This document shows, piece by piece, positions 1 through 26,476 of a stretch of DNA of 64,000 nucleotides; position 1 is the first letter of the stretch, and each line of letters starts with the position of its first letter. Made by a program: the position numbers and the translations under genes. The notes beneath the pieces were generated by a model that ran no database searches, had not been told where the DNA came from, and worked only from the letters and a program-made list of their open reading frames with translations. The stretch is from contig CALNAJ010000041.1 in NCBI GenBank assembly GCA_937874695.1, forward strand, positions 1,458-65,457. Direction: 5' to 3'. This DNA comes from an uncultured Lactobacillus sp. Its GTDB lineage: Bacteria; Bacillota; Bacilli; Lactobacillales; Lactobacillaceae.

Positions 1-2
1 GG

Positions 3-236
3 TTCAACCACGAGCCCGAGAAATTCCCAGAATTCAAAAAACGCTACGTCACTGAACTCGAAGCTAACGAAGCGTTACCCGCCTTCTTGGACCTAGTCGC
101 TGAACAACTCAACGACCAAGACGTCATTCTATTATACGGCGCCAAGGATGAAGAACACAACCAAGCCATTATTCTGAAGGATTTTCTACTCAAACGCTTA
201 GCTGACCGAGTGCCCGCTGAACGGCTGACAGACTAA
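3..236 (+). CDS. DUF488 (YeaO-like) family protein, C-terminal fragment; 5' end outside window
   Basis: Stop-free frame from window edge to TAA 234-236. Translation FNHEPEKFPEFKKRYVTELEANEALPAFLDLVAEQLNDQDVILLYGAKDEEHNQAIILKDFL resembles the conserved C-terminal half of DUF488 proteins. Absent from ORF track because there is no start codon in the window. Confidence 0.55.
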   Translation, partial: FNHEPEKFPEFKKRYVTELEANEALPAFLDLVAEQLNDQDVILLYGAKDEEHNQAIILKDFLLKRLADRVPAERLTD

Positions 237-867
237 GCTCCCGGGTACTGGCAAGCATGGCATCAGCCTGCGGGAGACTTTCACTGTTGATGCCCACCGT
301 GAAGCACCCCGCCGCCTTGGCCGACCGCACGCCGGTCACGGTATCCTCAAAGGCCACACAGTCTTCCGGGTTCTGGTGGATCAACGCAGCCGCTGCCAAA
401 TAGACATCTGGCGCTGGCTTGCTGGCCTTCAGACTCGCTGCCGGTACGATCTGTGGAAAGTACTTGGCTAGTCCCAAATGGGCAATCTCCGCCGGGGCAT
501 TGGCCGAAGCGGACGCCAAGGCCATGGGATACTCCGCCGCCACGAGTTCATCTAGGAACGCCGTGACACCGGAAAGACAGTTGGCCGGCGTCAGAGCCGC
601 CACATACTGGCGGTACAGGTCGTTTTCGTGATTTGTGAGCCGTAGTCGCTGTTCGGGTGTAAAATCGCTCTGACGGCCCACAGAGGCCAATATAGTCGTC
701 AGTGAATCCGCCCGGCTCATCCCGGGTAAGGTCGCCGCGAGCTGGTCGGTCCACGGAATGTGTAGTTCCTGCGCAATCGTTTGCCAAGAAGCCAAATGGT
801 ATTGCCAGGAATCGGCCAACACCCCGTGTAAATCAAACAGAAAGCCGCGTAATTGTCGTGTTTGCAT
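190..867 (-). CDS. HAD-superfamily hydrolase, beta-phosphoglucomutase-like (motif I is DxH, not DxD)
   Basis: 225-aa ORF. HAD motifs FDLHGVL, ASASAN, SKPAPD, EDTVTG are collinear with beta-PGM LFDLDGV/ASASKN/SKPAPD/EDSQAG. SD GAGGGGGAG upstream of ATG 867. Confidence 0.8.
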   Translation of the reverse strand: MQTRQLRGFLFDLHGVLADSWQYHLASWQTIAQELHIPWTDQLAATLPGMSRADSLTTILASVGRQSDFTPEQRLRLTNHENDLYRQYVAALTPANCLSGVTAFLDELVAAEYPMALASASANAPAEIAHLGLAKYFPQIVPAASLKASKPAPDVYLAAAALIHQNPEDCVAFEDTVTGVRSAKAAGCFTVGINSESLPQADAMLASTRELSLSAVQRALGQLSV

Positions 868-912
868 GAGAACTCCCCCTCGTGAAAGCGTTTCAATTTA
901 CGACTATTATAC

Positions 913-958
913 ACCAAAACAAAATGGTTCACCGCTTTAAACTATGCGGTGAACCATT
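913..958 (-). terminator. Rho-independent terminator downstream of usp gene
   Basis: 13-bp stem AATGGTTCACCGC / GCGGTGAACCATT (923-958), followed on the minus strand by TTTTGTTTTG. Confidence 0.8.
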
Positions 959-964
959 GTTAAT

Positions 965-1423
965 TTAACGAATTACGATAACTGAAACGTCCGACTTCTT
1001 AGCGAGCCGCAACCCAATGGCACCGGGATGCCCGTGACTAGCGAAGTCAACGTCGGCGCCACAAACAACCAAGTCCGGTTTGAATTCCGGAATAATTTTG
1101 TCGAGCACGACATCATCGACGTCGCCCCCTTCGGCCACAATGGACCGCACGTCATTCACGCCAAACGCCGTTGCTTTGTCGGCATACTCCTTGACGATGG
1201 CCTTCAGCTCATCGCGCTTTGCGTTAAGCTTGTCCGGCATCAGTGACTCATAGATACTGATGTCATTGCTTTCCAGCACAGAGGCAATGCCCAGGTGTGC
1301 TTGGTAATCACGCGCCATCGTCATCGCGAATCGGAATGCGCGGCTGGTCGAGGGCCGGTCGTCCTCGTCGATCGTGATTAAAATTCGCCGGAAAAATAGT
1401 GGATTATTACTTTCGTCTGCCAT
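965..1423 (-). CDS. universal stress protein (UspA family)
   Basis: 152-aa ORF with the Usp alpha/beta pattern (ILITIDEDD..., LVVCGADVDFASHGHPGAIG, SDVSVIVIR). SD AGGAGGG before ATG 1423. Confidence 0.85.
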   Translation of the reverse strand: MADESNNPLFFRRILITIDEDDRPSTSRAFRFAMTMARDYQAHLGIASVLESNDISIYESLMPDKLNAKRDELKAIVKEYADKATAFGVNDVRSIVAEGGDVDDVVLDKIIPEFKPDLVVCGADVDFASHGHPGAIGLRLAKKSDVSVIVIR

Positions 1424-1490
1424 AAAAACCCTCCTGCAATCAATGGTGACACGGCCCTATTGTATCATACCTGGCTGGAGCGGTACACGT

Positions 1491-1512
1491 TGCCTGCGGC
1501 TGTCAGAGTTCT
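1491..1512 (+). repeat. short fragment of the modular intergenic repeat (5' end of module 1)
   Basis: TGCCTGCGGCTGTCAGAGTTCT versus the family 5' end CGCCTGCGGCTGCCAGAGATTCT. 68 nt upstream of the usp start. Confidence 0.4.
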
Positions 1513-1593
1513 AAGTTAAAAGCCACTTTAGTCGCTAGTATGGATAACCTTGCCACATACAAATTTTCTAAAGACATTTAATACCTAATAGCC

Positions 1594-1628
1594 CACGAAA
1601 AAACGCCCTCTGAATTTTAGAAGGCGTT
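1594..1628 (-). terminator. Rho-independent terminator downstream of BCCT transporter gene
   Basis: Minus-strand AACGCCTTCT-AAAATTC-AGAGGGCGTT (10 bp including one G-U), followed by TTTTTTCG. Confidence 0.7.
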
Positions 1629-1817
1629 TCGTGTTTGATTTCGTAATTGTTTGGTGCCGCTGGTTTCGTTGATTTTTATCTAGTGAAACCAGCGGCCTCC
1701 GAAACGTGTTCCTTCGGGCAGGTCCCTGCGCTTAACCCCAATACGCACCGGCTTGGCTCCGCCAAGCGGGCACTTATTGACGTTAATGCTCAGGACCTAA
1801 CCGCCCTCAGTCACACT

Positions 1818-3362
1818 CTACCTTGCGTGGTCCGGCGACAAAATCATCGGGCCCCGTACCGCACGTGGTAATTCGACGGTAATCCGCCGTACAACAACTG
1901 GTTGTGGAACAACCACTGGTGCTGGTTTTGGCTTGGCTGCCAACATGTGCCAGATTGAATGCAACAACAAGATGCAGACAAACATCAATGGGAAGCCGGC
2001 AATCGTCGACACCGTTTGAACGGTCTTGAATCCACCGACCATCACGATCCCGAAAGAGAAGATGATGAAGACGATGACCCAGATCATTCGGTTCCACCGA
2101 CTTGGTTCTTCACCGTCATCCAAGTGAAGACTGGTGAAGGATGACACGATGAAGGCTGACGATGAGATCGTCGTGGCCAAGAAGATGAAACAAGAGATAC
2201 AGTACAGTGCCAAGATAATCATCTTAAATGGCAACGTCGCGATAACCGTGGCAACCACGGCAGCTTGACCCTGCGTATTTAAAATGTGAACCAAGTTAAC
2301 GGCACCAGTCTGTTGGAGCCACAGAGAGTAGCCCCCAAAGATGGCGTAGAAGCTCATGCACCCTAAGGCACCATAAGTTAACATCCCAACTAAGACCTGA
2401 CGAATCGTCCGACCCTTGGAGATCCGGGCAATGAACAGACCCATGACGGGCATGTAGGACAACCACCAGCCCCAGTAGAAGATGGTCTCTTGCTGAGCGG
2501 TACTATCCCCACCGTTAGGCATGGTGTTCGTTGACATCGAGATAAACTTTTGGGCCATTAACCCAATACTATTAGTTTCAGAATTTAAAATATAAACAGT
2601 GGGTCCAATGATTAAAATAATAGCTAACAGACCCAGCGCCGTCCAAATGTGGGCGGAACTCAAGCGGTTGATTCCCCCGTTTAACCCATGGAAAACGGTG
2701 ACCGCAAACAGAATAAACAAAATGATAAAGAGTTCAATTTTAAGCATGAGGTTATCTTGAACCCCAGTCAACCGGCTGAGAACTTTGGAAATAATCGGAA
2801 TTTCCATCCCGACGGACGAACCGATCCCGCCCATGATCCCAAAGACAACTAAGAAATCGACAACGTGCCGTGCAATGACTTTCCCCGTGCTGTCACCTTG
2901 AAGACTGGTGATAGCGGCACTGACCCGTTGAACCTTGGCGTGCTTCACATACAGGACGTAAGCAATCGCAATCGTTGCTGGTGCGAACATCATCCAAGCC
3001 ATTGGGCCCCAGTTGAACTGCCCCATCATGTGGGCAGCGCTGTAGGCGTTACTTGAGAATGGCTTAAACCCGAAGGCTGGGTGTTGCAGGTACCGCAGTG
3101 GATCAACGATAGACAGCATCAAAATGCTGGCATCGATCGCCGTGGCGAAGACCATTGACCCCCACTGAAAATTACTGTAGTGGGGCTTGTCATTGGCATC
3201 ACCCAACTTAATTTTACCAAACTTACCAAATGCTAAATACATAAAAAATAAGAAGTTGATCACGTACACCATCATATAGGCCCATGACATGCGAGTATCA
3301 ATCCAGTTCAATAGAGAACTCAGAGTGGTTTGTAATTGGTTACCACCTAAGATAAATAGCAA
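1818..3362 (-). CDS. BCCT-family (betaine/carnitine/choline) transporter; true start probably upstream at a non-canonical codon (about 3431)
   Basis: 514-aa polytopic ORF with BCCT hallmarks (FGKFGKIKLG, FQWGSMVFATAIDASIL, WGWWLSYMPVMGLFIARISKGRTIRQV). The track start is a TTG without SD. The frame stays open to TGA 3444-3446, with GGAGGA at 3438-3443. Confidence 0.9.
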   Translation of the reverse strand: MLFILGGNQLQTTLSSLLNWIDTRMSWAYMMVYVINFLFFMYLAFGKFGKIKLGDANDKPHYSNFQWGSMVFATAIDASILMLSIVDPLRYLQHPAFGFKPFSSNAYSAAHMMGQFNWGPMAWMMFAPATIAIAYVLYVKHAKVQRVSAAITSLQGDSTGKVIARHVVDFLVVFGIMGGIGSSVGMEIPIISKVLSRLTGVQDNLMLKIELFIILFILFAVTVFHGLNGGINRLSSAHIWTALGLLAIILIIGPTVYILNSETNSIGLMAQKFISMSTNTMPNGGDSTAQQETIFYWGWWLSYMPVMGLFIARISKGRTIRQVLVGMLTYGALGCMSFYAIFGGYSLWLQQTGAVNLVHILNTQGQAAVVATVIATLPFKMIILALYCISCFIFLATTISSSAFIVSSFTSLHLDDGEEPSRWNRMIWVIVFIIFSFGIVMVGGFKTVQTVSTIAGFPLMFVCILLLHSIWHMLAAKPKPAPVVVPQPVVVRRITVELPRAVRGPMILSPDHAR

Positions 3363-3741
3363 TGACGCGAGAATAAATAAAACGATGGTTGGTACGAATA
3401 CTAACTTATCAATATTTTTACGCGCTAAAATAAATAATCCTCCTCATTTGTTTCCTGGGAGCGAACTCCCAGCGGTCATGTTCAGAAGAGATTGTACGAA
3501 AAAAGCGCTAAACAGGGTCGTTACACGAGCCACCTGTACAGCGCCATTACGGTTGAATACAAATTGCCTACGCAAATCTCTTTGAATCAATATCCAAAGT
3601 CTATTATACGCGGTCGCTAGGATTAGTAAAATCTTGCTGATGGATAAGTTTTTTCTTTCGGAATTAAAGCGTTTACATAGCCAATGCCTATTGCATTCTA
3701 AGAATTTGATTAGATTTTAGGCAATAGCTTAACCCTTTGTC

Positions 3742-4347
3742 TTAGTCAAGCTTTTCTGGCCACTGTGCCTTGGCTGCGGCATTTCCAGTGGGACCGTTAT
3801 CAATTTCCTTGATAACATGCGCTGGATTCCCGACCAAAACCACGTCATCCCCAAAGGATTTCGTGACGACGGCACCGGCACCAACAACGACATTATTCCC
3901 CAGCGTGACGCCAGGTAAGATCGTGACGTTACCACCGAACCAGGCGTTATCGCCGATGGTGATGGGCGCACCCATTTCAACATCGTTGACCCGAGCCATC
4001 GCGTTCAGTGGGTGCACTGGCGTGTAAAGCCCAACGTTCGGACCGAAGTAACAGTGTTCACCAATGGTGATGGGACAGGTGTCCAGCAGGGTCATGTTGT
4101 AATTACCATAGAAGTGGTCGCCGATGTGGATGTTCCAGCCGTAATCGTATTCGAGGCCGGCTTCAACAAAGAAGTCATCCCCACTATCCGCGATTAGCTT
4201 GCGATAACCATCGTTTCGTTCAGCGTTGTCGTCCAATTGGTTAACGGCACGCAGTTGCTTTCGTGCGGCGACTCGCCGGTCGATCAGTTCTGGATCGAAC
4301 TGATTGTAGGGTTGCCCCGCCGTCATTTTTTCCCGTTCTGTTGCCAT
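3742..4347 (-). CDS. maa: maltose/galactoside O-acetyltransferase family (left-handed beta-helix)
   Basis: N-terminal Mac-type segment (MTAGQPYNQFDPELIDRRVAARKQL) plus hexapeptide repeats (IGDNAWFGGNVTILPGVTLGNNVVVGAGAVV). Start trimmed to ATG 4347, preceded by AGAGGAG. Confidence 0.85.
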   Translation of the reverse strand: MATEREKMTAGQPYNQFDPELIDRRVAARKQLRAVNQLDDNAERNDGYRKLIADSGDDFFVEAGLEYDYGWNIHIGDHFYGNYNMTLLDTCPITIGEHCYFGPNVGLYTPVHPLNAMARVNDVEMGAPITIGDNAWFGGNVTILPGVTLGNNVVVGAGAVVTKSFGDDVVLVGNPAHVIKEIDNGPTGNAAAKAQWPEKLD

Positions 4348-4423
4348 GACATAAATCACTCCTCTTGGCTCCCATGATACCACTTGCTAGGTGTTTTCTC
4401 TAAACGGGTAATGGTTTGATCTT

Positions 4424-4611
4424 CGCCTGCGGCTGCCAAGGATTCTGCCGCTGTGGGGACCGCCTGCAGCCAAAGAGCGGGCTTCCGGCTTGGTTTGAAA
4501 CCTCGCCAGGTTCGGGCGAGTTTCCAAACTCATCCCACGTTGTAAGGCCGGAAAGCCCACCGGTCTAACAACGTTGTCACGGATGGCGCCATCCTTGGCC
4601 TCCTCCGGCTA
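4424..4611 (+). repeat. modular intergenic repeat, copy A (full length, modules 1-2-3-4, 188 nt)
   Basis: Shares CGCCTGCGGCTGCCA.GGATTCTGC.GCTGTGGGGACCGCCT.CAGCC.AA.AGCGGGCTTCC with copies at 7476, 15357, 18954 and 25932. Shares the 3' end ATCC.TGGCCTCCTCCGGCTA with the copies at 18954 and 25932. Confidence 0.85.
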
Positions 4612-4689
4612 CGGCAACTATTCTCCTTGTCAAACACCAGCGACATCGTATCGTAGGGAGTAGCCATCACCAATATACCCCAACCTTCA

Positions 4690-4938
4690 CTAACGTTTAG
4701 CTTTAAGCAACGAGCCAATCCAAATCTTTAGGCTCTCAATAATTAATACAAGAATGAACAAGACCACATATACCGTACAGAAAACTTCAATCCAGAACGA
4801 CAACGACAGTGGCAACAAGAAACAAATGAGATCCAACGTGGCCACTGGTCCCGTGGCCCATGCCAAAACTTTGAACCATTTTGGAAACTTGGAAAATACG
4901 TTCACCCATGTGAATAGGCTTAGAAATATTTTCTTCAA
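4690..4938 (-). CDS. small membrane protein, unknown function
   Basis: 82-aa ORF with two predicted TM helices. TTG start preceded by GGGGAG. No family recognised. Confidence 0.45.
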   Translation of the reverse strand: MKKIFLSLFTWVNVFSKFPKWFKVLAWATGPVATLDLICFLLPLSLSFWIEVFCTVYVVLFILVLIIESLKIWIGSLLKAKR

Positions 4939-5147
4939 AATGCTCTCCCCTTTAGGCCTAAGTCTTCAGATGACTCTAAACCTAGACTCCCCTGAAACAT
5001 CTTAATTATAGGCCTATCTGGTATCGCCACAGTTCAGCGTTTGGAATCTTCAGTAAACCTTAACCGCTTCCGTTTGGCCGTAAAAAAAGAATGAGACACT
5101 AACGCTCATTCCCTCGAAATTACTTATTTCGTTGCACACCACGACGC

Positions 5148-5612
5148 CTAAACGTTGTCGTCCACAGTTTCTCCTGGCATGGTCTGTTCACGCAAGATCC
5201 ACGTGATGCCGTATGCATCGACGATCTGCCCCATCTTGCCTCCGGAGCTTTGTTCGCCGAAAGGACTGATGACCTTCACGTCGGATTTGAGCAGTCGTTG
5301 ATACAGGCCCGCCAATTCCTTCACGCTGGCAGAGTCGTCCGCATCAACGTCAATCATTAGCGAAATCAACGTGGAAGACGTCGGCTGGCCCATCAAGGCG
5401 TCGGCACACTGAATGTCCAAACCTAGAATCTTAAAACCGCCGCTCATGGTCATTTCGTCTAAGTTAACGGTAGGTGCTAACCCAAACTGTTCGACTTCCT
5501 CGGCCGTCGGGCTGACCCGGTAGGCGTTGGTTGCCCCAAAGACGCTCTGATAATACGCAATGGCTTCTTTGGCGTTTTCAAATTCCAAATATGGAATTAA
5601 CTTTGCTTGCAT
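5148..5612 (-). CDS. VOC/glyoxalase-fold protein (PhnB-like)
   Basis: MQAKLIPYLEFENAKEAIAYYQSVFGA... is typical of PhnB/3-demethylubiquinone methyltransferase-like VOC proteins. Start trimmed to ATG 5612. Confidence 0.7.
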   Translation of the reverse strand: MQAKLIPYLEFENAKEAIAYYQSVFGATNAYRVSPTAEEVEQFGLAPTVNLDEMTMSGGFKILGLDIQCADALMGQPTSSTLISLMIDVDADDSASVKELAGLYQRLLKSDVKVISPFGEQSSGGKMGQIVDAYGITWILREQTMPGETVDDNV

Positions 5613-5740
5613 CGTCGGTACCCCATTCATGACATAGTTTAGAAACAAATCGACAGCCTAGTCACCGCTAGTCCGGTGCTAGTCCCCTCGATTAGATGAA
5701 CCGCATTTTATCCCTAGCTGGTATTATACCCTTAATGACC

Positions 5741-6643
5741 TTAAAACGGTAGGTCACGCAAGCCTTTCGCAATGTCAGCGAGTGACTGTTCGGCTGTCGT
5801 ATGCTTTAACGGGGCCTGTGAGGCCGCCGCTTTCGGGTGTTCATCGGCCGTCGAGCTGACTGGCGTTACTGCGTGCGAAGGTGTCATCTTTGCCGGCTGT
5901 TTTACCGCTGCTTTAACGGCGGCGTGATGGCGTTCTTGTCCCATCCCATCCATCGTTTCGTTCAGCAAGTGATCCACGAACACGTTCCCCTGATTGGTGG
6001 CGTGTCCCTTGGTCCATTGATAACTCAGCTGCGTAAATTGCGGCAGTAAACGATCCACGTCTTGCCACAGCTCGGCGTTAGCCAAAGGTCCCGCACTGCG
6101 TTTCCAGCCGCGACGTTTCCAACCGGCTAGCCAGCCCTCGGTGACGGCGTTCAACACGTAACGCGAGTCTAGAATAAATACAATACTGTTCTGACTCTGA
6201 TTCAAGTCGACTAACTTCTGGAGCGCATTGCGAAAGGCCATGATCTCCATCCGATTATTGCTAGCCCCAAATTCACCATCGGAGCCAGTCACGACATCAT
6301 CCGGTAATTCGATGCGGTAGGCCCAAGCGGCCTTGTCGCCAGTTCTCACGTGCCCACCAGCGACGTTACCGGTATTTCGCGAGCCACCATCCGTATAGAC
6401 CGTGATCGCCGCAGAACCGCTCTGAGGGCTCGTAGCCGTCCGGGGTGAACTGTGGTGTGTCTTCTTGGGTACGCTCGACGTTGCCTGGCCCTGCATGAAG
6501 GCGTCTGCGGCACTTGCCGACGTGAAACTCTTATATTGGGCCCCGGAATAGCCGGTGACCTGCGCCTGTGTTTCCGCCCAGGTTCGGTAGACGCCGGGCT
6601 TACGACCGCGGCGAACTGCATAGTATTTCTGTGCCAAATTCAT
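5741..6643 (-). CDS. rnhA: ribonuclease HI with N-terminal hybrid-binding domain and a long low-complexity C-terminal tail
   Basis: N-terminus KYYAVRRGRKPGVYRTWAETQAQVTGYSGAQYKSFTS is the RNase H1 N-terminal duplex-binding domain. The RNase H core follows (VYTDGGS..., NNRMEIMA, DSRYV, WQWTKGHATNQGN..VD). Confidence 0.85.
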   Translation of the reverse strand: MNLAQKYYAVRRGRKPGVYRTWAETQAQVTGYSGAQYKSFTSASAADAFMQGQATSSVPKKTHHSSPRTATSPQSGSAAITVYTDGGSRNTGNVAGGHVRTGDKAAWAYRIELPDDVVTGSDGEFGASNNRMEIMAFRNALQKLVDLNQSQNSIVFILDSRYVLNAVTEGWLAGWKRRGWKRSAGPLANAELWQDVDRLLPQFTQLSYQWTKGHATNQGNVFVDHLLNETMDGMGQERHHAAVKAAVKQPAKMTPSHAVTPVSSTADEHPKAAASQAPLKHTTAEQSLADIAKGLRDLPF

Positions 6644-6914
6644 TCCTCACTTTCGACCTAATCTAAATTAGTTTACCATAGTTTTTCCAAGTGCGACCAA
6701 ATCCGTCATTACAGGACTTATGAAGCCGTTGCCAACATTATTAGGACCGGGAAAACTTTTCCTCAAATAAATTTGTCACAAACCTTAAAAATCAATAATT
6801 TCAAAGTGTAAATTGTTTCCATAACTTTTAGATTATGCTAACCTAGTAGGTGTGAGTATTGGTCGGAGACTGTCCTAATTTACTCATTTTTCAAAATTTT
6901 TAAGGGGGTTTTTG

Positions 6915-7394
6915 ATGAAGAATCCAATCCATGCGTCCATTATTACCGTCGACCAAGCCCGCGCGATGCTTAAGGACCAGCGAGAACAACGTGACGAACG
7001 TTTTCCACAGCTGGCCGCCTCCGGCCAATATATCTTACCAGACTATCGGTTAACCCGTAAGCGTGAGGCCTTTAAGATTCGTCGGCATACTTTTTTGAAG
7101 AAACATTTCCGTTCCTACGTGGCTTTTGATTCCGACAACGGTCAGACCTTGTGGATTCACAACTTCCCAAGCCTGTCCGAGGCCTGCTTCTGGTTAAACA
7201 CTGGATTGAAGCCCAACGACACGGACTCCGCCGGCACTTACCAGGGCTGGAAGGAAGAACACGTCGCTGAAATTGAAGTCCTGAAGGATCAACTCCGCGC
7301 GCAACACAAAGAAAAGAAAAAGCCCATTGCGGCACCGAAACCGGTAACCGTAACGACTGTAAAAAAAGTAAAGCGCGCTAAAGCTAAGAAATAG
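6915..7394 (+). CDS. hypothetical protein with Lys-rich C-terminal tail
   Basis: 159-aa ORF. ATG 6915 is 8 nt after AAGGGGG. Own terminator downstream. No family recognised. Confidence 0.6.
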   Translation: MKNPIHASIITVDQARAMLKDQREQRDERFPQLAASGQYILPDYRLTRKREAFKIRRHTFLKKHFRSYVAFDSDNGQTLWIHNFPSLSEACFWLNTGLKPNDTDSAGTYQGWKEEHVAEIEVLKDQLRAQHKEKKKPIAAPKPVTVTTVKKVKRAKAKK

Positions 7395-7405
7395 CGGCAT
7401 TACAT

Positions 7406-7453
7406 AAAGCGCCAACGATAGCCATCTTTGCGGTTATCGTTGGCGCTTTTTAT
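7406..7453 (+). terminator. Rho-independent terminator
   Basis: 15-bp stem AAAGCGCCAACGATA / TATCGTTGGCGCTTT, followed by TTTAT. Confidence 0.85.
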
Positions 7454-7475
7454 ATTGACTGTTATTTTTTTACAT

Positions 7476-7542
7476 CGCCTACGGCTGCCAGAAATTCTGC
7501 CGCTATGAGGACCGCCTACAGCCGAAGAGCGGGCTTCCGGCT
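7476..7542 (+). repeat. modular intergenic repeat, copy B (module 1 only, 67 nt)
   Basis: CGCCTACGGCTGCCAGAAATTCTGCCGCTATGAGGACCGCCTACAGCCGAAGAGCGGGCTTCCGGCT aligns along its whole length with module 1 of the other copies. Confidence 0.85.
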
Positions 7543-7702
7543 AAAAGAACTAGCAATCACAAACACAGCTAATCTAGTAAATCCTATCCGATGTCCTGAA
7601 AATGTAGTCAAAATTTCATTGCGCATTTCAAACACATCGTCTCCAACTACCAATAAAGCCGCTAAAAACCAACAGCTTCAGCAAGTCTCACTATTCAAGA
7701 TC

Positions 7703-8938
7703 CTAGAGATCTAAGTGAACCTGCTTGGGGTCCGTCTTCACAATGATCTTACCATGGTGAATCGAGTACAGCACTTCTGAACGCTTGTTCAATGCATTAT
7801 AGAAGTTATCGTTGTTCATGATGACCAAGTTGGCTGGTTTGCCCTCGGCGATACCGTAGTGGTCGCCGACATGCATCGCCTTGGCCCCGTTTGTCGTGAC
7901 AAACTTGTAGGACTCGTTGATGTCATCGTACCCCATCATCTGAGTAACGTGAATCCCCATATGAAGGGCATCGAGCATGTTGCCGTCACCCATGGGGTAC
8001 CAAGGATCCTTGATATCATCTTCACCAAAGGCCACGTTGACCCCGGCCGCGTTGAGTTCCTTGACCCGCGTCAAGCCCCGACGCTTAGGATAAGTGTCGA
8101 ATCGGCCACCCAAGTGGGTATTGATCAGGGGGTTAGAAATCATGTTGATGTGAGACATCTGCAATAGGCGCATCAGCTTGTAAGCGTAAGCGTTGTTGTA
8201 AGAGCCCATCGCCGTGGTGTGGCTGGCCGTGACTTGATCGCCCAAACCGGTTTCCAAAGCCAAGGTGGCTAACGTTTCCAATCCACGGGAAGCAGGGTCA
8301 TCGATCTCGTCACAGTGCGCGTCGACCAGCTTGCCATACTTTTGTGCCAGTTCAACGGCGAAGTGCAGGGACTCTACACTGTATTCACGCGTGAATTCAA
8401 AATGCGGAATGGCTCCGATAACGTCGACACCCAGCTTAGCAGCTTGTTCCATCAGTTCTTTACCGTGTGGGAATGACAGGATACCTTCTTGAGGGAAGGC
8501 CACCAGCTGCAATTCGATAAAGTCTTTCACTTCGTCACGCATCTCGATCAAGGCCTTCAGCGCCGTCAAATCCGGGTCGGTCACGTCCACGTGGGACCGA
8601 ACAAACTGAACCCCATGGCTCGCCTGCAATTCCAACGCCTGCCGAGAACGGGTTTTAACGTCTTCAATGCTCAGCGTCTTCTTCCGTTCGGACCAGATCC
8701 GAATACCATCAAATAACGTCCCGGACTGGTTCCATTCGGGATCTCCCGCCGTCATGGTACTGTCTAAATGGACGTGTGGATCAACAAATGGTGGCAAAAT
8801 CAATTTGCCGTGTGCATCGATCACCTGTTCATTATCCTTAGCCGTTAAATGATCGGCAATGGCGGTAAACTTACCCTCCTCGATGCGAATATCCTGTGGC
8901 TGCGTTGCGTTTTCGATGAGACCTTGTTGAATTAACAT
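7703..8938 (-). CDS. codA: cytosine deaminase-type amidohydrolase
   Basis: 411-aa ORF. Metal-binding PPFVDPHVHLD, and an overall CodA-like pattern (GTLFDGIRIW, VRSHVDV, HCDE.DD). Confidence 0.8.
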   Translation of the reverse strand: MLIQQGLIENATQPQDIRIEEGKFTAIADHLTAKDNEQVIDAHGKLILPPFVDPHVHLDSTMTAGDPEWNQSGTLFDGIRIWSERKKTLSIEDVKTRSRQALELQASHGVQFVRSHVDVTDPDLTALKALIEMRDEVKDFIELQLVAFPQEGILSFPHGKELMEQAAKLGVDVIGAIPHFEFTREYSVESLHFAVELAQKYGKLVDAHCDEIDDPASRGLETLATLALETGLGDQVTASHTTAMGSYNNAYAYKLMRLLQMSHINMISNPLINTHLGGRFDTYPKRRGLTRVKELNAAGVNVAFGEDDIKDPWYPMGDGNMLDALHMGIHVTQMMGYDDINESYKFVTTNGAKAMHVGDHYGIAEGKPANLVIMNNDNFYNALNKRSEVLYSIHHGKIIVKTDPKQVHLDL

Positions 8939-8976
8939 GCGCGTTAACCTACCTCCTACACTTTTTCATCTTAAAT

Positions 8977-9273
8977 TTAATAAAAGCCGGGAATAGTCAG
9001 TCCGAGTAAAAGAATCGTGCTGTCAGCAACCAACCCCAATACCACGGCAATGACACTCACCGTAGCGGGGACTAGGCACCACCAGGGACCCTTTTTTGCG
9101 GACCGAACTAACCTTACTAAGCTTATCACAGTTAGGACGAATCCGAACAATAAAGTCACGGGTTCATGGGGAAACCAGCGGTAAACCGTTTGAACAGCGC
9201 CGACCAGTGCGTACCAGCTCACGATAAATCCAATCAAACTCCACCCTAATACGGGCCATTGTTCACGTCTCAT
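8977..9273 (-). CDS. small membrane protein, unknown function
   Basis: Three predicted TM helices. Start trimmed to ATG 9273, preceded by GAGGGGA. Confidence 0.5.
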   Translation of the reverse strand: MRREQWPVLGWSLIGFIVSWYALVGAVQTVYRWFPHEPVTLLFGFVLTVISLVRLVRSAKKGPWWCLVPATVSVIAVVLGLVADSTILLLGLTIPGFY

Positions 9274-9522
9274 TGTTCCATCCCCTCGTCCCCATTTCCT
9301 GCCAATAAGCACCTAACTAGCCTCAATTTACGCCGTCATCCGCGAACTAGCGAGCAAACGACTCCTGATTGCGGGGTCACCGAACATTGCCACAGATGGC
9401 GTCTACCCGCCATAAGTCACCGTTGCGCTAACAAATATATTTATCAAACTTCCGGATCGTCTTTTCACCGTGGTCTGTGCTATGCTGGAAGCTATAATAC
9501 TGACAGCGGAGGTTACTTAATT

Positions 9523-10341
9523 ATGGTAAATTCATACCCACAAGCCCTCACCATCGCGGGTTCCGATAGCGATGGCAGCGCCGGCATGCAGGCTGATCTG
9601 CACACCTTCTTTGCTCGGCGCGTCTATGGTGCCTCGGTCATGACTGCCTGCGTGGCTGGGAATTCTTACGGCATTCACGCCAGCATCCCGATGCCAACCG
9701 ACTTTATCGATCAGGAATTCAAGGATCTAGCTGACGACTACCACATCCGGGCATCTAAGACCGGGATGCTGGCCGACTCAGAATTAATCAACGATGTCGT
9801 CAAGAACTACCAAGCCGCCGACTTCGGTCCCCTGGTAGTCGATCCGGTCATCATGACCAAGCACGGCAACCAGCTCCTGGAAGAGAGTGCCTTCAACACC
9901 CTACGCACAGCCCTCATTCCACTGGCAACGGTCCTGACGCCGAACTTCTTTGAGGTCGAAAAGCTGGCCGAGATGTCAATTTCATCCGATAGCGATATGG
10001 AAACGGCGGCCCACAAGCTTCAAAAGATGGGCGCCAAAAACGTGATTGCCAAAGGGAGTCACGCCGACCCCACCCAAAAGGTCGTGAAGGACTTTGTCTT
10101 GCTGGAATCCGGTGAGAGCTTCTGGTTAAGCGAACCCTACCACGAGACCGATCGGGTCAATGGCACCGGCGACTCCCTCTCCGCTTGCATCACGGCGGAA
10201 CTGGCCAAGGGCACACCAATGAAGCGCGCCATCGAAATCGCCAAACAATTCGTCAACGCCGCGATTGGCTCGCCAATTGAAGTCGGCCACAAATTTGGAC
10301 CGGTTAACCACTGGGCAGCAATGGATCGCGATTTTAAATAG
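9523..10341 (+). CDS. hydroxymethylpyrimidine/phosphomethylpyrimidine kinase family (ThiD/PdxK-type)
   Basis: ALTIAGSDSDGSAGMQADL, KTGML, VVDPVM, NGTGDSLSACITAELAKG match the ThiD/PdxK ribokinase-fold kinases. ATG 9523 is preceded by GGAGG; the 88-codon upstream extension in the track has no support. Confidence 0.85.
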   Translation: MVNSYPQALTIAGSDSDGSAGMQADLHTFFARRVYGASVMTACVAGNSYGIHASIPMPTDFIDQEFKDLADDYHIRASKTGMLADSELINDVVKNYQAADFGPLVVDPVIMTKHGNQLLEESAFNTLRTALIPLATVLTPNFFEVEKLAEMSISSDSDMETAAHKLQKMGAKNVIAKGSHADPTQKVVKDFVLLESGESFWLSEPYHETDRVNGTGDSLSACITAELAKGTPMKRAIEIAKQFVNAAIGSPIEVGHKFGPVNHWAAMDRDFK

Positions 10342-10348
10342 AAAAACC

Positions 10349-10397
10349 AAAGCAGCTAGATCATTCTCAAAACGAGAAGACCTAGCTGCTTTAGTTT
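10349..10397. terminator. bidirectional terminator hairpin between convergent genes
   Basis: 11-bp stem AAAGCAGCTAG / CTAGCTGCTTT, flanked by A-run and T-run. Confidence 0.75.
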
Positions 10398-10413
10398 AAA
10401 TTCGTTAAAAATC

Positions 10414-10593
10414 TTACCACCGATCCGGCCGCCACGTTCGGCCATCGACCTCACCGCCGAGTTGCTCGCTACGCCGGTCCTGTTCGGCAACGACCTGCTT
10501 CAACGCCAGCCAAAATGCCCGGTCGGTAAACTTAGATTGTTGGTTCGCCAATTGGTCGATCTGTTGGCGTAACCACGCTGATTGTTCAGTCAT
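10414..10593 (-). CDS. 59-aa hypothetical protein, translationally coupled to upstream oxidoreductase
   Basis: ATG 10593 overlaps the upstream stop (ATGACTGA, 8-nt overlap). Translation MTEQSAWLRQQIDQLANQQSKFTDRAFWLALKQVVAEQDRRSEQLGGEVDGRTWRPDRW. Below the ORF-track length cutoff. Confidence 0.5.
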   Translation of the reverse strand: MTEQSAWLRQQIDQLANQQSKFTDRAFWLALKQVVAEQDRRSEQLGGEVDGRTWRPDRW

Positions 10594-11278
10594 CTTCCTG
10601 CTCCTTAATCATGGCTAGAGTATCCGTCAACTGATCGAGATGCTCTCGATTCTGGTCGAAGACATTGGCAATTAATTTACCCGCCGTCTGTTGTTCTGCC
10701 GGCAACTGGTCGACCATAGCTGACAACCTGTGAGCGAACCAATCCTGCCGATTCGTCAGACTATCCGGTTGTTTCTGAGTCAGATACCGCTGGTAGTCGA
10801 TGACCAGCTGCAGTTTCTCCGGCTCTTCAAGGTAGCCAAATTGGTGGATGGGAAATATCGGCAGCCACGTCATCTTGGCACGATGAGCCAACGCTGCCAG
10901 TGGGGCCAACGCTGCGTCCAGCGTCATATTTTCGGCACCGCCCCGTTGGAAGGCCTGTTTGGGCATACCGGTGGTTACCACAATGCCCAGCTCCTTGCCG
11001 GCCAGGGGATAGCGATGATCACCGTAGACAAACGTCCGCGTCAGCACGGTGTCTTCCCACTGCTTCAATCCCGCCGGTGCCGCGTACCAGTACAACGGAA
11101 ACTGCAAGATAACCCGGTCGGCGTGGCGTAGCTGCTCCTGCTCCTTGGCAACATCTAAGGTCGATTGCCCCTCAATATGTTCCCAGATAATAGTCTCGTC
11201 GGGCAGACTTTCCTTCAAAAATTGTTGACTGGTCGAATCCGCCAGCTGGGGATGGGAGACCAGAACGAGCGTAGTCAT
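10586..11278 (-). CDS. flavodoxin-like fold NAD(P)H dehydrogenase (quinone) family protein with C-terminal helical extension
   Basis: LVLVSHPQLADSTSQQF, ADRVILQFPLYWYAAPAGLKQWED are typical of Flavodoxin_2 (YwrO/KefG-like) proteins. Confidence 0.75.
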   Translation of the reverse strand: MTTLVLVSHPQLADSTSQQFLKESLPDETIIWEHIEGQSTLDVAKEQEQLRHADRVILQFPLYWYAAPAGLKQWEDTVLTRTFVYGDHRYPLAGKELGIVVTTGMPKQAFQRGGAENMTLDAALAPLAALAHRAKMTWLPIFPIHQFGYLEEPEKLQLVIDYQRYLTQKQPDSLTNRQDWFAHRLSAMVDQLPAEQQTAGKLIANVFDQNREHLDQLTDTLAMIKEQEDD

Positions 11279-11418
11279 CGTACCATCAACTCCTTCACGT
11301 TTTTTTCACTAGAACTACTTTAGCACAGTTTCACGAAATCTTTATCTCTTGCGCTTTGCTAAAATTAGCGTAAAAGAAAAGGCCTTTAGCAGTAGCGCTA
11401 ACGACCAGTTGACTTGAA

Positions 11419-11571
11419 CTAACTTAAGCGGCGATCAGAATCATCGTGGAATTTATTTTCCCGGGTAGCCAGATGCTTGCTGTTCTTCCGGAAAGTTTCC
11501 CGGTTGTTCAGGTACAGCTGACCCACCGCGGCCAAAATGATAATGAATAAAATAATAACTAGTGCATACAT
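11419..11571 (-). CDS. 50-aa single-TM small protein
   Basis: GGGGGGAATTGCT-ATG. Translation MYALVIILFIIILAAVGQLYLNNRETFRKNSKHLATRENKFHDDSDRRLS. Below the ORF-track cutoff. Confidence 0.45.
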   Translation of the reverse strand: MYALVIILFIIILAAVGQLYLNNRETFRKNSKHLATRENKFHDDSDRRLS

Positions 11572-11691
11572 AGCAATTCCCCCCGTCAACTTTAGGTTAC
11601 AGTTATATTATCTAAATGTTACAGGAACATTGCAAGCATATTGTTATGAAAATAAGAAAATCTTGATATTTTTAATCAGTGTTTAGATTGT

Positions 11692-11997
11692 TCACTTATT
11701 AGTCGTACCGATTGACGATTGCCGCGAGGATTCTTTTTGCTGGGACTCACGCTGCGAATGGTGTTTCTTCTGAACCTTGCGAACCTGATTAGAGACCTGA
11801 TCGGTTGGACTGACGGTCTTTTGCCGTGATAGATTGGCCGCTGGACCCGCTAACAATAGCACAATGACAGCTGTTAGACAGTACACTAAATTTCGGTGCC
11901 TATCGCCCTGCCCCTGCGTAATTTGAAAGAAATAATAAATAATACAGATAGCGGAAAAGAATACCGCAATCTCAGCAATGACGTGAAGTACTTGCAT
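11692..11997 (-). CDS. membrane protein, unknown function
   Basis: 101-aa ORF. SD AAAGGAGG upstream of ATG 11997. Two TM helices plus a basic/Ser-Gln-rich tail. Confidence 0.55.
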   Translation of the reverse strand: MQVLHVIAEIAVFFSAICIIYYFFQITQGQGDRHRNLVYCLTAVIVLLLAGPAANLSRQKTVSPTDQVSNQVRKVQKKHHSQRESQQKESSRQSSIGTTNK

Positions 11998-12079
11998 GGT
12001 TTCCGCCTCCTTTGAATACCTTTCACTCTACTGGAGGCACAGGGTGACTGTCAACTGACGACTCCCGGTTAATCCACAA

Positions 12080-12108
12080 TTGACACGGCGCGACGGCTTC
12101 TCTATAAT
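12080..12108 (+). promoter_or_regulatory. consensus sigma-A promoter for tRNA-Arg
   Basis: TTGACA (12080-12085), 17-nt spacer, TATAAT (12103-12108), about 30 nt upstream of the tRNA. Confidence 0.75.
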
Positions 12109-12139
12109 TAAGAAGTTGTTGGTCGCCAGACCTTATTAG

Positions 12140-12213
12140 GTCGCAATAGCTCAGCTGGATAGAGCAACGGTCTTCTAAACCGTAGGTCGAGGGTTCGAAT
12201 CTCTCTTGCGACA
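12140..12213 (+). tRNA. tRNA-Arg (anticodon TCT); CCA not encoded
   Basis: Cloverleaf by hand: acceptor GTCGCAA/TTGCGAC, D arm GCTC-AGCTGGATA-GAGC, anticodon arm ACGGT-CTTCTAA-ACCGT, T arm GAGGG-TTCGAAT-CTCTC, discriminator A. Confidence 0.9.
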
Positions 12214-12227
12214 TCAAAACACAACGT

Positions 12228-12266
12228 AAAGAAGTTCTCACGTCATCGTGGGAACTTCTTTTTTAC
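12228..12266 (+). terminator. terminator after tRNA-Arg
   Basis: AAGAAGTTC ... GGAACTTCTT stem, followed by TTTTT. Confidence 0.7.
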
Positions 12267-12292
12267 ATTTTTAAACTTTTTTTGATATCCGG

Positions 12293-12532: not shown

Positions 12533-12624
12533 GTAAAACCACCACCTTAATTAGTTACTCCCATCATAAACTGCCCACCCCGACAACTCAAGTAATTCGC
12601 TTTTCGAGTGATAACTAGAGACAA

Positions 12625-12657: not shown

Positions 12658-12680
12658 ACGACTCAGTTTAGGCTAATAAA

Positions 12681-15223: not shown

Positions 15224-15356
15224 AGTGTCCCTCCGTCCTCGTTCTCCCCATTCTAGCGAATCCCCCACCTGTCGACAAGTATCTCGCACAACTAAACCTT
15301 GACGCGCCGCCGTTGCTCCCCTATCATCAGGGAAGAATATTGGTTAGGTGGTTTTT

Positions 15357-15460
15357 CGCCTGCGACGGTCAGAGATTCTGCTACTGTGGGGACCGCCTGT
15401 AGCCAAAAAGCGGGCTTCCGGCTCGGTTTAGAACCTCGCCAAGATTCAGACGAGTTTCTA
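15357..15460 (+). repeat. modular intergenic repeat, copy C (modules 1-2, about 104 nt)
   Basis: CGCCTGCGACGGTCAGAGATTCTGCTACTGTGGGGACCGCCTGTAGCCAAAAAGCGGGCTTCCGGCTCGGTTTAGAACCTCGCCAAGATTCAGACGAGTTTCTA aligns with copy A positions 4424-4527. Confidence 0.85.
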
Positions 15461-15590
15461 ATTAAAGGTCTCTGTGAACACTCACCTTCATCGTTCTTAG
15501 ACCATTAGCAGTTATGACATACAAGTCGCAGCTGGCAATAATAACTTACATATAAAGAAACTAAATAGGTTAACAATCGGAGGAAACATC

Positions 15591-18907: not shown

Positions 18908-18953
18908 AGGTGAACCCTCCTTGGTTTAATTCTAAATGTTAGGCTGAAATTGT

Positions 18954-19058
18954 CGTCTACGGCTGCCAGGGATTCTGCTGCTGTGGGGACCGCCTACAGC
19001 CAAAAAACGGGCTTCCAGCGCCGTCACGGCTAGCGCCATCCCTGGTCTCCTCCGACTA
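18954..19058 (+). repeat. modular intergenic repeat, copy D (module 1 fused to module 4, 105 nt)
   Basis: CGTCTACGGCTGCCAGGGATTCTGCTGCTGTGGGGACCGCCTACAGCCAAAAAACGGGCTTCC followed directly by ...GTCACGGCTAGCGCCATCCCTGGTCTCCTCCGACTA. Confidence 0.85.
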
Positions 19059-19315
19059 ATCAAATTTCTAACCATAACCTTAGATAAGTCATCAGCGTAC
19101 ATACCAAGCTTCTATTTCACTTTTTGACTACGAATCAATCTTGTCCGTAATCGGTTGTCACATTAGGTAGGTGATTCAGCCACAATCCCAATACAATTTT
19201 GATTTCAGTTTAGCATATCCCCCTGCCGGCAACAACTTCGGTAAGAACATATTGTCAGCGGTTACAGCATAAGGGTATACTAAAGAACGTAATGAGATTA
19301 AGGGAGGAATTTACC

Positions 19316-25849: not shown

Positions 25850-25931
25850 GTTCAACCGCTCCCTTTCATTGCTAAATCCATTGTACACGAAGACTAGTTG
25901 GGAGGCGATTAGCTTTGAAATTACGAGTCCG

Positions 25932-26113
25932 TCGCCTGCGGCTGCCAGAGATTCCGCCTGTTGTGGGGACGCTTCAGCCTGAGAAGCGGGCTTCCCGCTC
26001 GCTTTGAAGCCACGAAGAACACGTGTCTCCAAAGTCGCCCGTGGTGTAAACCGGCCTAAAACGCCAGTTAACACCACCTCCACGGCTGGCTGCATCCCTG
26101 GCCTCCTCCGGCT
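25932..26113 (+). repeat. modular intergenic repeat, copy E (full-length variant, 182 nt)
   Basis: CGCCTGCGGCTGCCAGAGATTCCGCCTGTTGTGGGGACGCTTCAGCCTGAGAAGCGGGCTTCC ... GCATCCCTGGCCTCCTCCGGCTA. The central part differs in sequence but still forms a hairpin. Confidence 0.85.
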
Positions 26114-26476
26114 AAGATAACTTACAACCTCATAACAAAGTTTTCCCCAAATTATATCCATCATGAATTTGCCTAACGTGATCTATCATCTTTCTTTCGC
26201 GAACATTTGCGTATAAAGAAGGCCATTAATCCTGGCGTTTGGTCCAGAATTAATGGCCTTCACGGGAGATAACTGTACAACGACACTACTCTCTAACTGG
26301 GAAAGCTACCCCAAAATCATTCCGTGCCCACCACTGATGATTTTCTAGAGAACCATGAGCCGACAGACTTTCAGTTGCCTGAAATTTTCCCGTTATATCT
26401 ACAGTATGAATAACGACAAGTGCCCACGATTAATCAATAATTGGTGGTAAATCCAGCCGCAGGCGAGCTCCATCAG

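What the first reader, a model, noticed from the sequence alone, without database searches (positions are those of the whole stretch)
4424..4611. BOX-like modular intergenic repeat family: five clear copies plus fragments in 26 kb
One non-coding element recurs at 4424-4611 (188 nt), 7476-7542 (67 nt), 15357-15460 (104 nt), 18954-19058 (105 nt) and 25932-26113 (182 nt), all in the same orientation. Short fragments occur at 1491-1512 and, inverted, at about 26451-26467 (CGCCTGCGGCTG). A possible degenerate inverted copy lies at about 1690-1815. The copies are mosaics of modules. Module 1 (about 67 nt, CGCCT[GA]CGGCTGCCA..GATTC.GC.GCTGTGGGGACCGCCT.CAGCC.AA.AGCGGGCTTCC) is present in all five. A central hairpin module is in three copies, and a 3' module ending ATCC.TGG.CTCCTCCG.CTA is in three. 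Copy D joins module 1 directly to the 3' module. This presence/absence architecture resembles the boxA-boxB-boxC organisation of pneumococcal BOX elements. No transposase or RAYT-like gene lies in the window. Every copy is strictly intergenic. Most have module 1 lying 47-134 nt upstream of a minus-strand start codon (usp, maa, mutY, lplA, tag paralog). I am not aware of a described repeat family with this sequence.
Basis: seen in the sequence. Interest (0 to 1): 0.7.

Follow-up and report, generated by a model that had tools for sequence, protein, structure and literature searches.

The report
Decayed MITE copies carrying folded domain
The five intergenic repeats are old, partly eroded copies of a small non-autonomous transposon found across Levilactobacillus. 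Its ~190-nt core folds on one strand into a five-helix structure kept intact by compensatory mutations, which makes it a candidate new structured RNA spread by a mobile element.

Summary
Five same-strand copies lie at 4422-4615, 7474-7545, 15355-15465, 18952-19062 and 25931-26116, and all are intergenic.

The BOX-like "mosaic of modules" reading is not supported. Across 22 Lactobacillaceae species the normal unit is one fixed ~190-nt element (117 of 167 copies are full length). Window copies B, C and D are truncated or internally deleted forms.

In Lactiplantibacillus mudanjiangensis and several Levilactobacillus species this 190-nt domain sits inside a 260-636-bp unit. That unit has terminal inverted repeats (CTAAAGGTTGAAAG) and 7-9-bp target-site duplications, so it is a MITE. 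It also carries a second, diverged copy of the domain in inverted orientation. The window copies have lost these ends.

The domain folds into five helices. 49 of 52 base pairs show compensatory changes. 96.5% of cells are paired, against 31-40% when partners are slid. Two identical GGA/GNA internal loops are conserved.

I found no match in Rfam, plasmid, phage or viral collections, and no description in the literature I could search. The closest analogue is the bcr1 repeat of Bacillus cereus. The function of the fold is inferred to be RNA-level and is untested.

The parts
4422..4615 (-). Copy A, a full-length folded domain whose sense strand is the window minus strand. P1 pairs 4591-4609 with 4425-4443. 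P2 pairs 4578-4587 with 4447-4455. The hairpins are P3 at 4537-4574, P4 at 4491-4532 and P5 at 4462-4489. It lies 75 nt upstream of the acetyltransferase (Mac/Hexapep) start at 4347.
   Evidence: The covariance model scores it 181.7 bits on the minus strand and 30.9 on the plus strand. Helix coordinates come and the single-sequence folds.
7474..7545 (-). Copy B, truncated. It lies between convergent genes, just after the terminator hairpin at 7398-7457.
   Evidence: Full-length copies occupy the orthologous position at L064:2870-3060 and L101:4724-4913.
15355..15465 (-). Copy C, truncated. It keeps the 3' strands of P1 and P2, P5 and P4. It lies between the divergent MutY-like gene (start 15223) and the SBP_bac_5 gene (start 15591).
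18952..19062 (-). Copy D, internally deleted. P3 and P4 are lost, and P1, P2 and P5 are kept. It lies 45 nt upstream of the LplA start at 18907.
   Evidence: The covariance model scores it 83.5 bits. The same kind of deletion is seen in L001 at the copy A site.
25931..26116 (-). Copy E, a full-length folded domain of a different subfamily from A. P1 pairs 26094-26112 with 25934-25952. The hairpins are P3 at 26041-26078, P4 at 26000-26037 and P5 at 25971-25998. It lies about 82 nt upstream of the Tag (Adenine_glyco) start near 25849.
   Evidence: The covariance model scores it 183.5 bits.
1489..1512 (-). Terminal fragment (the 3' strand of P1) of a lost copy, 66 nt upstream of the Usp start at 1423.
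   Evidence: nhmmer E 6e-4, sequence. The orthologous spacer in L. koreensis (L001) carries two intact inverted copies at 2319-2507 and 2778-2969.
26453..26465 (+). 13-nt exact match to the element's P1 3' strand in inverted orientation. It is probably the last remnant of the inverted partner domain of copy E.
   Evidence: About 0.002 matches are expected by chance in the window (my arithmetic). Inverted partners are the rule in intact elements.

Best explanation
[quoted passage not shown] The family is shared by Levilactobacillus, Lactiplantibacillus mudanjiangensis and Companilactobacillus mishanensis.

Shown: an intact element is 260-636 bp long. It ends in inverted repeats (CTAAAGGTTGAAAG ... 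CTTTCAACCTTTAG), is flanked by a 7-9-bp duplication of an AT-rich target, and encodes no transposase. It contains one ~190-nt domain and, about 40-100 nt away, a diverged paralogue of that domain in inverted orientation. The window copies are the first domain only; their ends and partner have decayed.

Also shown: the domain is under selection to fold as a single strand. The folding strand is the one that reads from the element's centre towards its end, which in the window is the minus strand. The fold has a long closing helix P1, a helix P2 and three hairpins P3-P5. Identical 5'-GGA/5'-GNA internal loops sit in P1 and P5.

Inferred: mobilisation is in trans by an unidentified DDE transposase that makes 8-bp staggered cuts. 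The folded species is RNA, produced mainly by read-through from neighbouring genes. With two oppositely oriented domains, a full element puts one correctly folding domain into transcripts that enter from either side. The RNA probably acts in cis on those transcripts, for example by protecting ends, directing processing or insulating, and perhaps through a protein that reads the twin loops. What the fold actually does is untested.
For: Family size and range: more than 112 matching stretches were found, all real copies are in 22 Lactobacillaceae species, and the 12 matches outside the family carry no element.

Transposon features: 15 units have both inverted repeats, and 11 of them have direct repeats of at least 7 nt directly abutting the ends. 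Examples are TCAAAAAG, CCCTATAA, TTACCTAA and ATGATTTA.

Fixed architecture: the partner domain is always on the same side and inverted, 57 of 57.

Descent of the window copies from full elements: a type II relic lies at the copy A site in L064, and a type II domain lies next to the copy B orthologue in L101.

Fold: 52 pairs, 49 with compensatory changes. 96.5% of cells are paired, against 80.7% in shuffles and 31-40% when partners are slid, and the covariation score is 0.481 against 0.188, reached by 0 of 500 shuffles. The highest mutual-information column pairs are all Watson-Crick pairs of this structure.

Strand: G-U 287 against A-C 76; 36 pairs against 8, p = 2.5e-5; rare states 97 against 48. 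Type II shows the same bias, 101 against 34. On the favoured strand the conserved loops are purine-rich, with G10 in 116 of 116 sequences, A12 in 114 and A219 in 115.

Conservation: orthologous cores are more conserved than their 120-nt flanks.

Location: copies are intergenic and enriched between convergent genes, as is usual for MITEs.
Against: None of the window copies has the inverted-repeat motif or a target-site duplication. Their MITE origin therefore rests on homology and synteny. No autonomous element or transposase was found in 112 loci of 8 kb.

There are no expression data. No consensus promoter or terminator lies inside the unit. Solo copies are no more often sense than antisense to their neighbours, 12 against 18, which is awkward for a purely read-through RNA.

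A G-T wobble is also tolerated in single-stranded DNA, so the strand bias does not by itself prove RNA.

Copy A and its positional orthologue in L101 belong to different subfamilies. Gene conversion or re-insertion could therefore explain the apparent conservation, instead of selection at that locus. Frequent truncation, with 3 of the 5 window copies affected, argues against a strong host-level requirement at every locus.
Confidence: 0.72

Rival explanations
1. The domain is a host-retained (exapted) structured non-coding RNA: either an independently transcribed small RNA gene family or a cis-regulatory leader for the genes downstream. On this view the transposon was only its vehicle.
For: Covariation is at the level normally used to nominate new RNA classes. 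There is a strand-specific G-U excess and two conserved purine-rich internal loops. Orthologous cores are more conserved than their flanks. Intact domains persist in the window after all transposon ends have gone. In the window four copies lie in sense orientation 45-134 nt upstream of start codons.
Against: No conserved promoter or terminator flanks the domain. The neighbouring genes are unrelated in function. Orientation relative to neighbours is random across loci. Copies at the same site are intact in one species and deleted in the next. Positional orthologues belong to different subfamilies.
Confidence: 0.2
2. The fold is a single-stranded DNA structure needed for transposition or replication of the element. 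Precedents are the end hairpins of IS200/IS605 elements, integron attC sites and plasmid single-strand origins.
For: The selection is strand-specific. By symmetry the favoured strand runs 5' to 3' towards each terminus, which is the polarity of the transferred strand. Selection on master copies during proliferation would explain covariation without any host function.
Against: Terminal inverted repeats with 7-9-bp target duplications point to a double-strand DDE mechanism that needs no internal fold. Copies show no orientation bias relative to gene direction, used here as a proxy for replication direction: 25 against 28. The conserved G-A-type loops are typical of RNA. Conservation of immobile orthologous copies is not explained.
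Confidence: 0.12
3. A BOX-like modular repeat: separate modules are assembled in different combinations.
For: The five window copies differ in which parts they contain.
Against: 70% of copies elsewhere are the same full-length unit. The short copies have full-length positional orthologues. No module is ever present in a variable number of tandem copies. The 'modules' are strands and hairpins of one interlocked fold.
Confidence: 0.04
4. The element is a giant bidirectional intrinsic terminator or a 3'-end stabiliser, so it is simply terminator DNA.
For: Copies are enriched between convergent genes, about 41%. In one subfamily P1 is flanked by an A-run and a T-run. A T-run of at least 4 follows P1 in 21-24% of solo copies against 5.5% in background sequence.
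Against: Three quarters of copies, including all those in the window, lack the T-run. The scan found no terminator inside the units. A five-helix fold with conserved internal loops is far more than termination needs.
Confidence: 0.08

Closest known systems
bcr1 repeat of the Bacillus cereus group (Okstad 2004; Klevan 2007; reviewed in PMC3184786)
   Same: It is a chromosomal, intergenic, non-coding repeat of Firmicutes with mobile-element character and flanking direct repeats. According to the review it is transcribed, compensatory changes maintain a multi-stem RNA structure, and copies lose structural stability over time.
   Different: bcr1 is about 155 bp with 5-bp direct repeats and two independent stem-loops. 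Here the unit is 260-636 bp with 7-9-bp duplications and 14-20-bp inverted repeats. It holds two paralogous ~190-nt five-helix domains with twin conserved internal loops. There is no sequence similarity, and the host family is different.
Pneumococcal BOX elements (boxA-boxB-boxC)
   Same: Both are intergenic, foldable, multi-copy repeats of a Gram-positive coccus or rod, and no transposase lies inside.
   Different: BOX is built from modules with a variable number of boxB units. Here there is one fixed unit, and the short copies are deletions. BOX lacks the inverted repeats and 8-bp duplications seen here. The description of BOX is from my own knowledge.
Classical bacterial MITEs such as Correia/NEMIS, RUP and ERIC (PMC3184786)
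   Same: They share terminal inverted repeats, target-site duplication, absence of a transposase, intergenic location and the ability to fold at the RNA level.
   Different: Those elements fold mostly as one long hairpin made by their inverted ends. Here the conserved fold is an internal branched domain with covariation in every helix, it is duplicated in inverted orientation, and it outlives the ends.
REP/RAYT elements and non-autonomous IS200/IS605 derivatives
   Same: They are strand-specific folded repeats spread in intergenic DNA.
   Different: Those lack inverted terminal repeats and target duplications and are short palindromes or subterminal hairpins. Both inverted repeats and duplications were found here, and no tnpA or RAYT gene was seen in the loci.

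Membership tests
MITE (non-autonomous DNA transposon) | Terminal inverted repeats | tested here: met
   CTAAAGGTTGAAAG / CTTTCAACCTTTAG, with at most 2 mismatches, is present at both ends of 15 units (alignments). It is not met by the window copies themselves.
MITE (non-autonomous DNA transposon) | Target-site duplication flanking the inverted repeats | tested here: met
   11 of 15 units have direct repeats of 7-9 nt abutting both ends, four of them perfect 8-mers. None is detectable around the solo or short copies: 13 against 9.6 in the control.
MITE (non-autonomous DNA transposon) | Small size and no transposase gene inside | tested here: met
   Units are 260-636 bp and contain only short, non-conserved mechanical ORFs.
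MITE (non-autonomous DNA transposon) | Multi-copy, with presence/absence differences between related genomes | tested here: inconclusive
   Many copies per genome are shown. Differences between species at the same site are deletions or decay, not clean empty sites. The only same-species contigs found are 100% identical to the window.
MITE (non-autonomous DNA transposon) | A related autonomous insertion sequence with the same ends | tested here: not met
   None was found in 112 loci or in the plasmid and phage collections. Whole genomes could not be searched.
BOX element | Modular A-B-C build with a variable number of internal modules | tested here: not met
   There is one fixed unit in 117 of 167 copies. 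The short forms are deletions of it.
Any curated RNA family (Rfam 15) | Covariance-model match at or near the gathering score | tested here: not met
   There is no hit on the copies at gathering score. At E up to 10 there is no credible hit on copy A or on whole elements from two species.
Structured non-coding RNA (generic criteria) | Conserved secondary structure supported by compensatory changes | tested here: met
   49 of 52 pairs show compensatory changes, and the controls are clearly exceeded.
Structured non-coding RNA (generic criteria) | Evidence that the strand is transcribed | not testable with these tools
   No transcriptome data are available. The only indirect evidence is the G-U excess over A-C.
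REP/RAYT or IS200/IS605-derived repeat | No inverted terminal repeats, no target duplication, and an associated Y1 transposase | tested here: not met
   Inverted repeats and duplications are present. No repeated transposase-like gene is found in the loci.
Intrinsic terminator | A G+C-rich stem directly followed by a U-run | tested here: not met
   A T-run follows P1 in only 21-24% of solo copies and in none of the window copies. The scans are negative.

The most novel reading that the evidence does not exclude
The ~190-nt five-helix domain with its twin GGA/GNA internal loops is a new class of functional structured RNA, either protein-binding or catalytic. A transposon has copied it to dozens of intergenic sites per genome. 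Selection keeps it at many of those sites after the transposon ends decay, so the element would rewire the RNA processing or stability of unrelated genes across a whole bacterial genus.
Probability: 0.25. Interest if true: 0.75.

Novelty: new member of a known kind. Interest (0 to 1): 0.5.

Why it matters
Mobile-element repeats in lactic acid bacteria are poorly catalogued. I found no description of this family in Rfam or in the searchable literature.

It gives Levilactobacillus genomes an annotation for dozens of otherwise unexplained G+C-rich intergenic blocks. It also provides markers for strain typing and for dating insertions.

More broadly, it is an unusually clean case of a transposon whose internal sequence, not its ends, carries the strongest evolutionary signal. 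Every helix covaries, the selection is strand-specific, and the domain persists after the ends are lost. If the fold proves to be a working RNA, it would show how a mobile element can distribute a ready-made RNA module next to unrelated genes. In this window those genes encode an acetyltransferase, MutY, LplA and Tag.

Tried and rejected
- **Rfam.** I searched at gathering score on the whole window, and at E up to 10 on copy A and on whole elements from two species. Nothing credible was found.
- **Plasmid, phage and viral collections.** BLAST of a full element against plasmids and of copy A against phages gave no match. The pattern scan of viral contigs gave no match.
- **Promoters and terminators.** Consensus scans inside the units found nothing above shuffles. 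A candidate TTGTCG-17-TGATAA promoter seen by eye in L074 is too weak and is not conserved.
- **Target-site duplications around solo or short copies.** The count was not above the permuted control, 13 against 9.6.
- **Autonomous parent.** No pair of ends 1-3 kb apart was found, and no repeated segment of 700 bp or more other than orthologues.
- **Sister-strain polymorphism.** The only contigs encoding the identical neighbouring protein are 100% identical to the window.
- **Clean empty site.** L019 against L111 turned out to be another internal deletion.
- **Degenerate copy at 1690-1815.** It is not supported by the covariance model or by nhmmer.
- **Terminator role.** A T-run is present in only a minority subfamily.
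- **Bias of the sense strand towards neighbouring genes or replication direction.** None was found.
- **Literature.** Eight searches, including the inverted-repeat sequence itself, found no description of this family.

Full report
**1. The observation**

The repeat is real. The repeat finder returned a five-member direct family at 4422, 7474, 15355, 18952 and 25931, and a three-member family for the 3' part at 4578, 19025 and 26081. nhmmer with copy A or E finds the same five, all on the + strand, with E-values from 1e-11 to 1e-57, and nothing in the remaining 38 kb. A covariance model run without filters gives the same five and no other significant hit.

All copies lie between genes with Pfam support: Usp, a Mac/Hexapep acetyltransferase, a MutY-like glycosylase, an SBP_bac_5 protein, LplA, GcvH and Tag. 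The mechanical ORF that overlaps copy E matches Adenine_glyco only from residue 121, so copy E is intergenic as well.

The fragment at 1489-1512 is a genuine terminal piece. The 13-nt inverted match at 26453-26465 is a plausible relic. The proposed degenerate copy at 1690-1815 is not supported.

**2. The family outside the window**

I scanned one genome per species with a degenerate pattern from the most conserved stretch. One hundred of these come from 20 Levilactobacillus species, Lactiplantibacillus mudanjiangensis and Companilactobacillus mishanensis. The other 12, from unrelated phyla, contain no element and fit the roughly 26 matches I estimated by chance.

nhmmer found 167 non-overlapping copies in these loci plus the window, and 117 of them are full length at 185-195 nt. 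The normal state is therefore one fixed unit, not a mosaic.

Several loci are orthologous to the window at 67-87% nucleotide identity:
- The copy B position holds full-length copies in L064 and L101.
- The copy A position holds a full copy in L101, an internally deleted one in L001 (the same kind of deletion as window copy D), and only a relic in L064.
- The spacer with the 1489 fragment holds two intact inverted copies in L. koreensis.

Another internal deletion separates L019 from L111.

**3. A larger transposon**

The flanks of many copies are themselves repeated between unrelated loci. Alignment of these units shows the following:
- The length is 260-636 bp.
- The ends carry the inverted repeats CTAAAGGTTGAAAG ... 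CTTTCAACCTTTAG.
- Direct repeats of the target, 7-9 bp long, abut the ends. Examples are TCAAAAAG in L072, CCCTATAA in L105, TTACCTAA in L059 and ATGATTTA in L053.

Eleven of the 15 units with both ends show such a duplication. A 7-nt match at fixed positions has a chance probability of about 6e-5.

These are the defining marks of a MITE as summarised in the Delihas review (PMC3184786).

Each long unit also contains a second, diverged paralogue of the 190-nt domain, which I call type II. There are 82 copies in the loci and none in the window. It always lies on the same side and always inverted, 57 of 57.

A type II relic at the copy A site in L064, and a type II domain beside the copy B orthologue in L101, show that the window copies descend from full two-domain elements. 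The window has no copy of the inverted-repeat motif. No autonomous partner was found. Plasmid, phage and viral collections have no match.

**4. The fold**

Full copies fold into a closed, branched structure with z-scores near -4.

On an alignment of 116 full copies, RNAalifold predicts 52 pairs in a long closing helix P1, a helix P2 and three hairpins. Forty-nine of the pairs show changes on both sides that keep the pair.

Counting on that structure gives the following:
- 96.5% of cells are paired, against 80.7% after shuffling and 31-40% when partners are slid by 1-3 columns.
- 907 cells have compensatory changes, against 231 expected.
- The covariation score is 0.481 against 0.188, reached by 0 of 500 shuffles.

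The column pairs with the highest mutual information are all Watson-Crick pairs of this structure. One pair has CG 56, UA 20, GC 19 and AU 19. The shuffle control does not remove relatedness between copies, so a tree-aware test is still needed. The slid-partner control and the number of pair types make a chance result very unlikely.

**5. Which strand folds**

In the paired columns G-U outnumbers A-C by 287 to 76. G-U exceeds A-C in 36 pairs and the reverse holds in 8 (p = 2.5e-5). For rare states only, the counts are 97 against 48.

Neutral decay of a duplex would give equal numbers. One particular strand is therefore selected to fold, and in the window it is the minus strand. Type II shows the same bias, 101 against 34. 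In a full element both folding strands therefore read from the centre towards the ends.

On this strand two identical 3x3 internal loops, 5'-GGA opposite 5'-GNA, are almost invariant. One lies in P1 and one in P5, with G10 in 116 of 116 sequences, A12 in 114 and A219 in 115. On the other strand these would be pyrimidine-pyrimidine mismatches. Purine-rich loops of this kind are typical of RNA; that is my own knowledge, not something tested here.

**6. Context**

With crude ORF calls, copies lie most often between convergent genes (about 41%) and least often between divergent ones (about 10%). This is usual for MITEs.

Solo copies are sense to both neighbours 12 times and antisense 18 times, so there is no bias towards the neighbours' strand or, by proxy, towards replication direction.

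There is no consensus promoter or terminator inside the unit. A T-run follows P1 in only 21-24% of solo copies, against 5.5% in background sequence, and in none of the window copies.

In seven positional orthologue pairs the core is more conserved than the 120-nt flanks, for example 190/195 against 73/120 and 102/120. However, copy A and its positional orthologue in L101 belong to different subfamilies. Gene conversion or repeated insertion cannot be excluded as the cause of this conservation.

**7. Interpretation**

The identity of the repeats as decayed copies of a two-domain MITE is well supported. Strand-specific selection on a five-helix fold is shown.

That the folded molecule is RNA, and that it acts in cis on transcripts that run through it, is inference. 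It rests on the G-U excess, the purine-rich conserved loops, and the symmetry that puts one correctly oriented domain in the path of transcripts from either side. I give it roughly even odds.

The main rivals are:
- a host-retained small RNA or leader;
- a single-stranded DNA structure used in transposition;
- a terminator or stabiliser role, which fits only one subfamily.

The BOX-like modular reading is contradicted.

**8. Comparison and novelty**

The nearest described analogue is bcr1 of the Bacillus cereus group. According to the review it is a MITE-like repeat that is transcribed, keeps a multi-stem RNA structure through compensatory changes, and loses stability in some copies. The present family differs in size, ends, duplication length, host and the complexity of its fold, and it has no sequence similarity to bcr1.

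It matches nothing in Rfam 15. Eight full-text searches, including one for the inverted-repeat sequence, found no description. That library omits most subscription journals and ISfinder, so an earlier description cannot be ruled out.

I rate it a new member of a known kind, with moderate interest. The interest would rise sharply if the domain proves to be a working RNA.

**9. Origin of the window**

Window 3394-18938 is 100% identical to a contig of ENA metagenome assembly ERZ1760274. The closest species representatives are 82-87% identical over genes: L. sp. HBUAS70063, L. yiduensis and L. koreensis. The source is therefore a Levilactobacillus species that was not among the loci returned.

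Noticed in passing
L072:2216-2400, L074:1415-1610 and 80 other places in the loci; none in the window: There is a second, diverged paralogue of the 190-nt domain ('type II') with its own closing helix. It is always inverted and lies 40-100 nt from the first domain inside intact elements. It shows the same G-U over A-C strand bias.
   Followed up: yes
Alignment A3 columns 10-12 with 217-219 and 150-152 with 174-176; in the window about 4603-4605 with 4429-4431 in copy A: Two nearly invariant, identical 3x3 internal loops (5'-GGA opposite 5'-GNA) lie in two different helices of the fold. They could be a twin binding site or docking surfaces. No known motif was assigned.
   Followed up: partly
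window 12625-12985 (-) and 12140-12213 (+): Rfam reports a cspA thermoregulator match over a cold-shock protein gene (89.6 bits, above the gathering score of 78) and a tRNA gene (70.9 bits).
   Followed up: no
window 50849-51330 and 52146-52627: Two direct repeats 1297 bp apart, of 300 nt and 97 nt at 70-72% identity. They look like tandem paralogous genes.
   Followed up: no
window 44065-44148: Two tandem 42-nt units at 74% identity, probably a repeat inside a coding sequence.
   Followed up: no
window 7398-7457: A 26-nt inverted repeat at 85% complementarity followed by a T-run. It is a likely intrinsic terminator of the + strand gene 6912-7394, and copy B lies immediately after it. In L111 and L019 a copy also sits directly after a terminator hairpin.
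   Followed up: partly
window 3394-18938 (and 1-12933): These stretches are 100% identical to two ENA metagenome-assembly contigs (ERZ1760274 NODE_44 and ERZ27268599 k141_10687). The window organism is therefore represented in public metagenome assemblies. No named species representative among the fetched loci exceeds 87% identity.
   Followed up: partly
L001:2319-2969, L097:5442-5928, L111:4782-5382, L091:5641-6303, L049:42-619, L039:5453-6023: In species without type II domains, pairs of full type I domains face each other with 100-300 nt between them. This suggests a second composite form built from two type I domains.
   Followed up: partly
Loci of Lactiplantibacillus mudanjiangensis (18 loci) and Companilactobacillus mishanensis (3 loci): The family occurs in single species of two other genera. 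In L. mudanjiangensis the copies look young, with perfect 8-bp duplications and 90-100% identical units. This suggests recent horizontal transfer and a burst of transposition.
   Followed up: no
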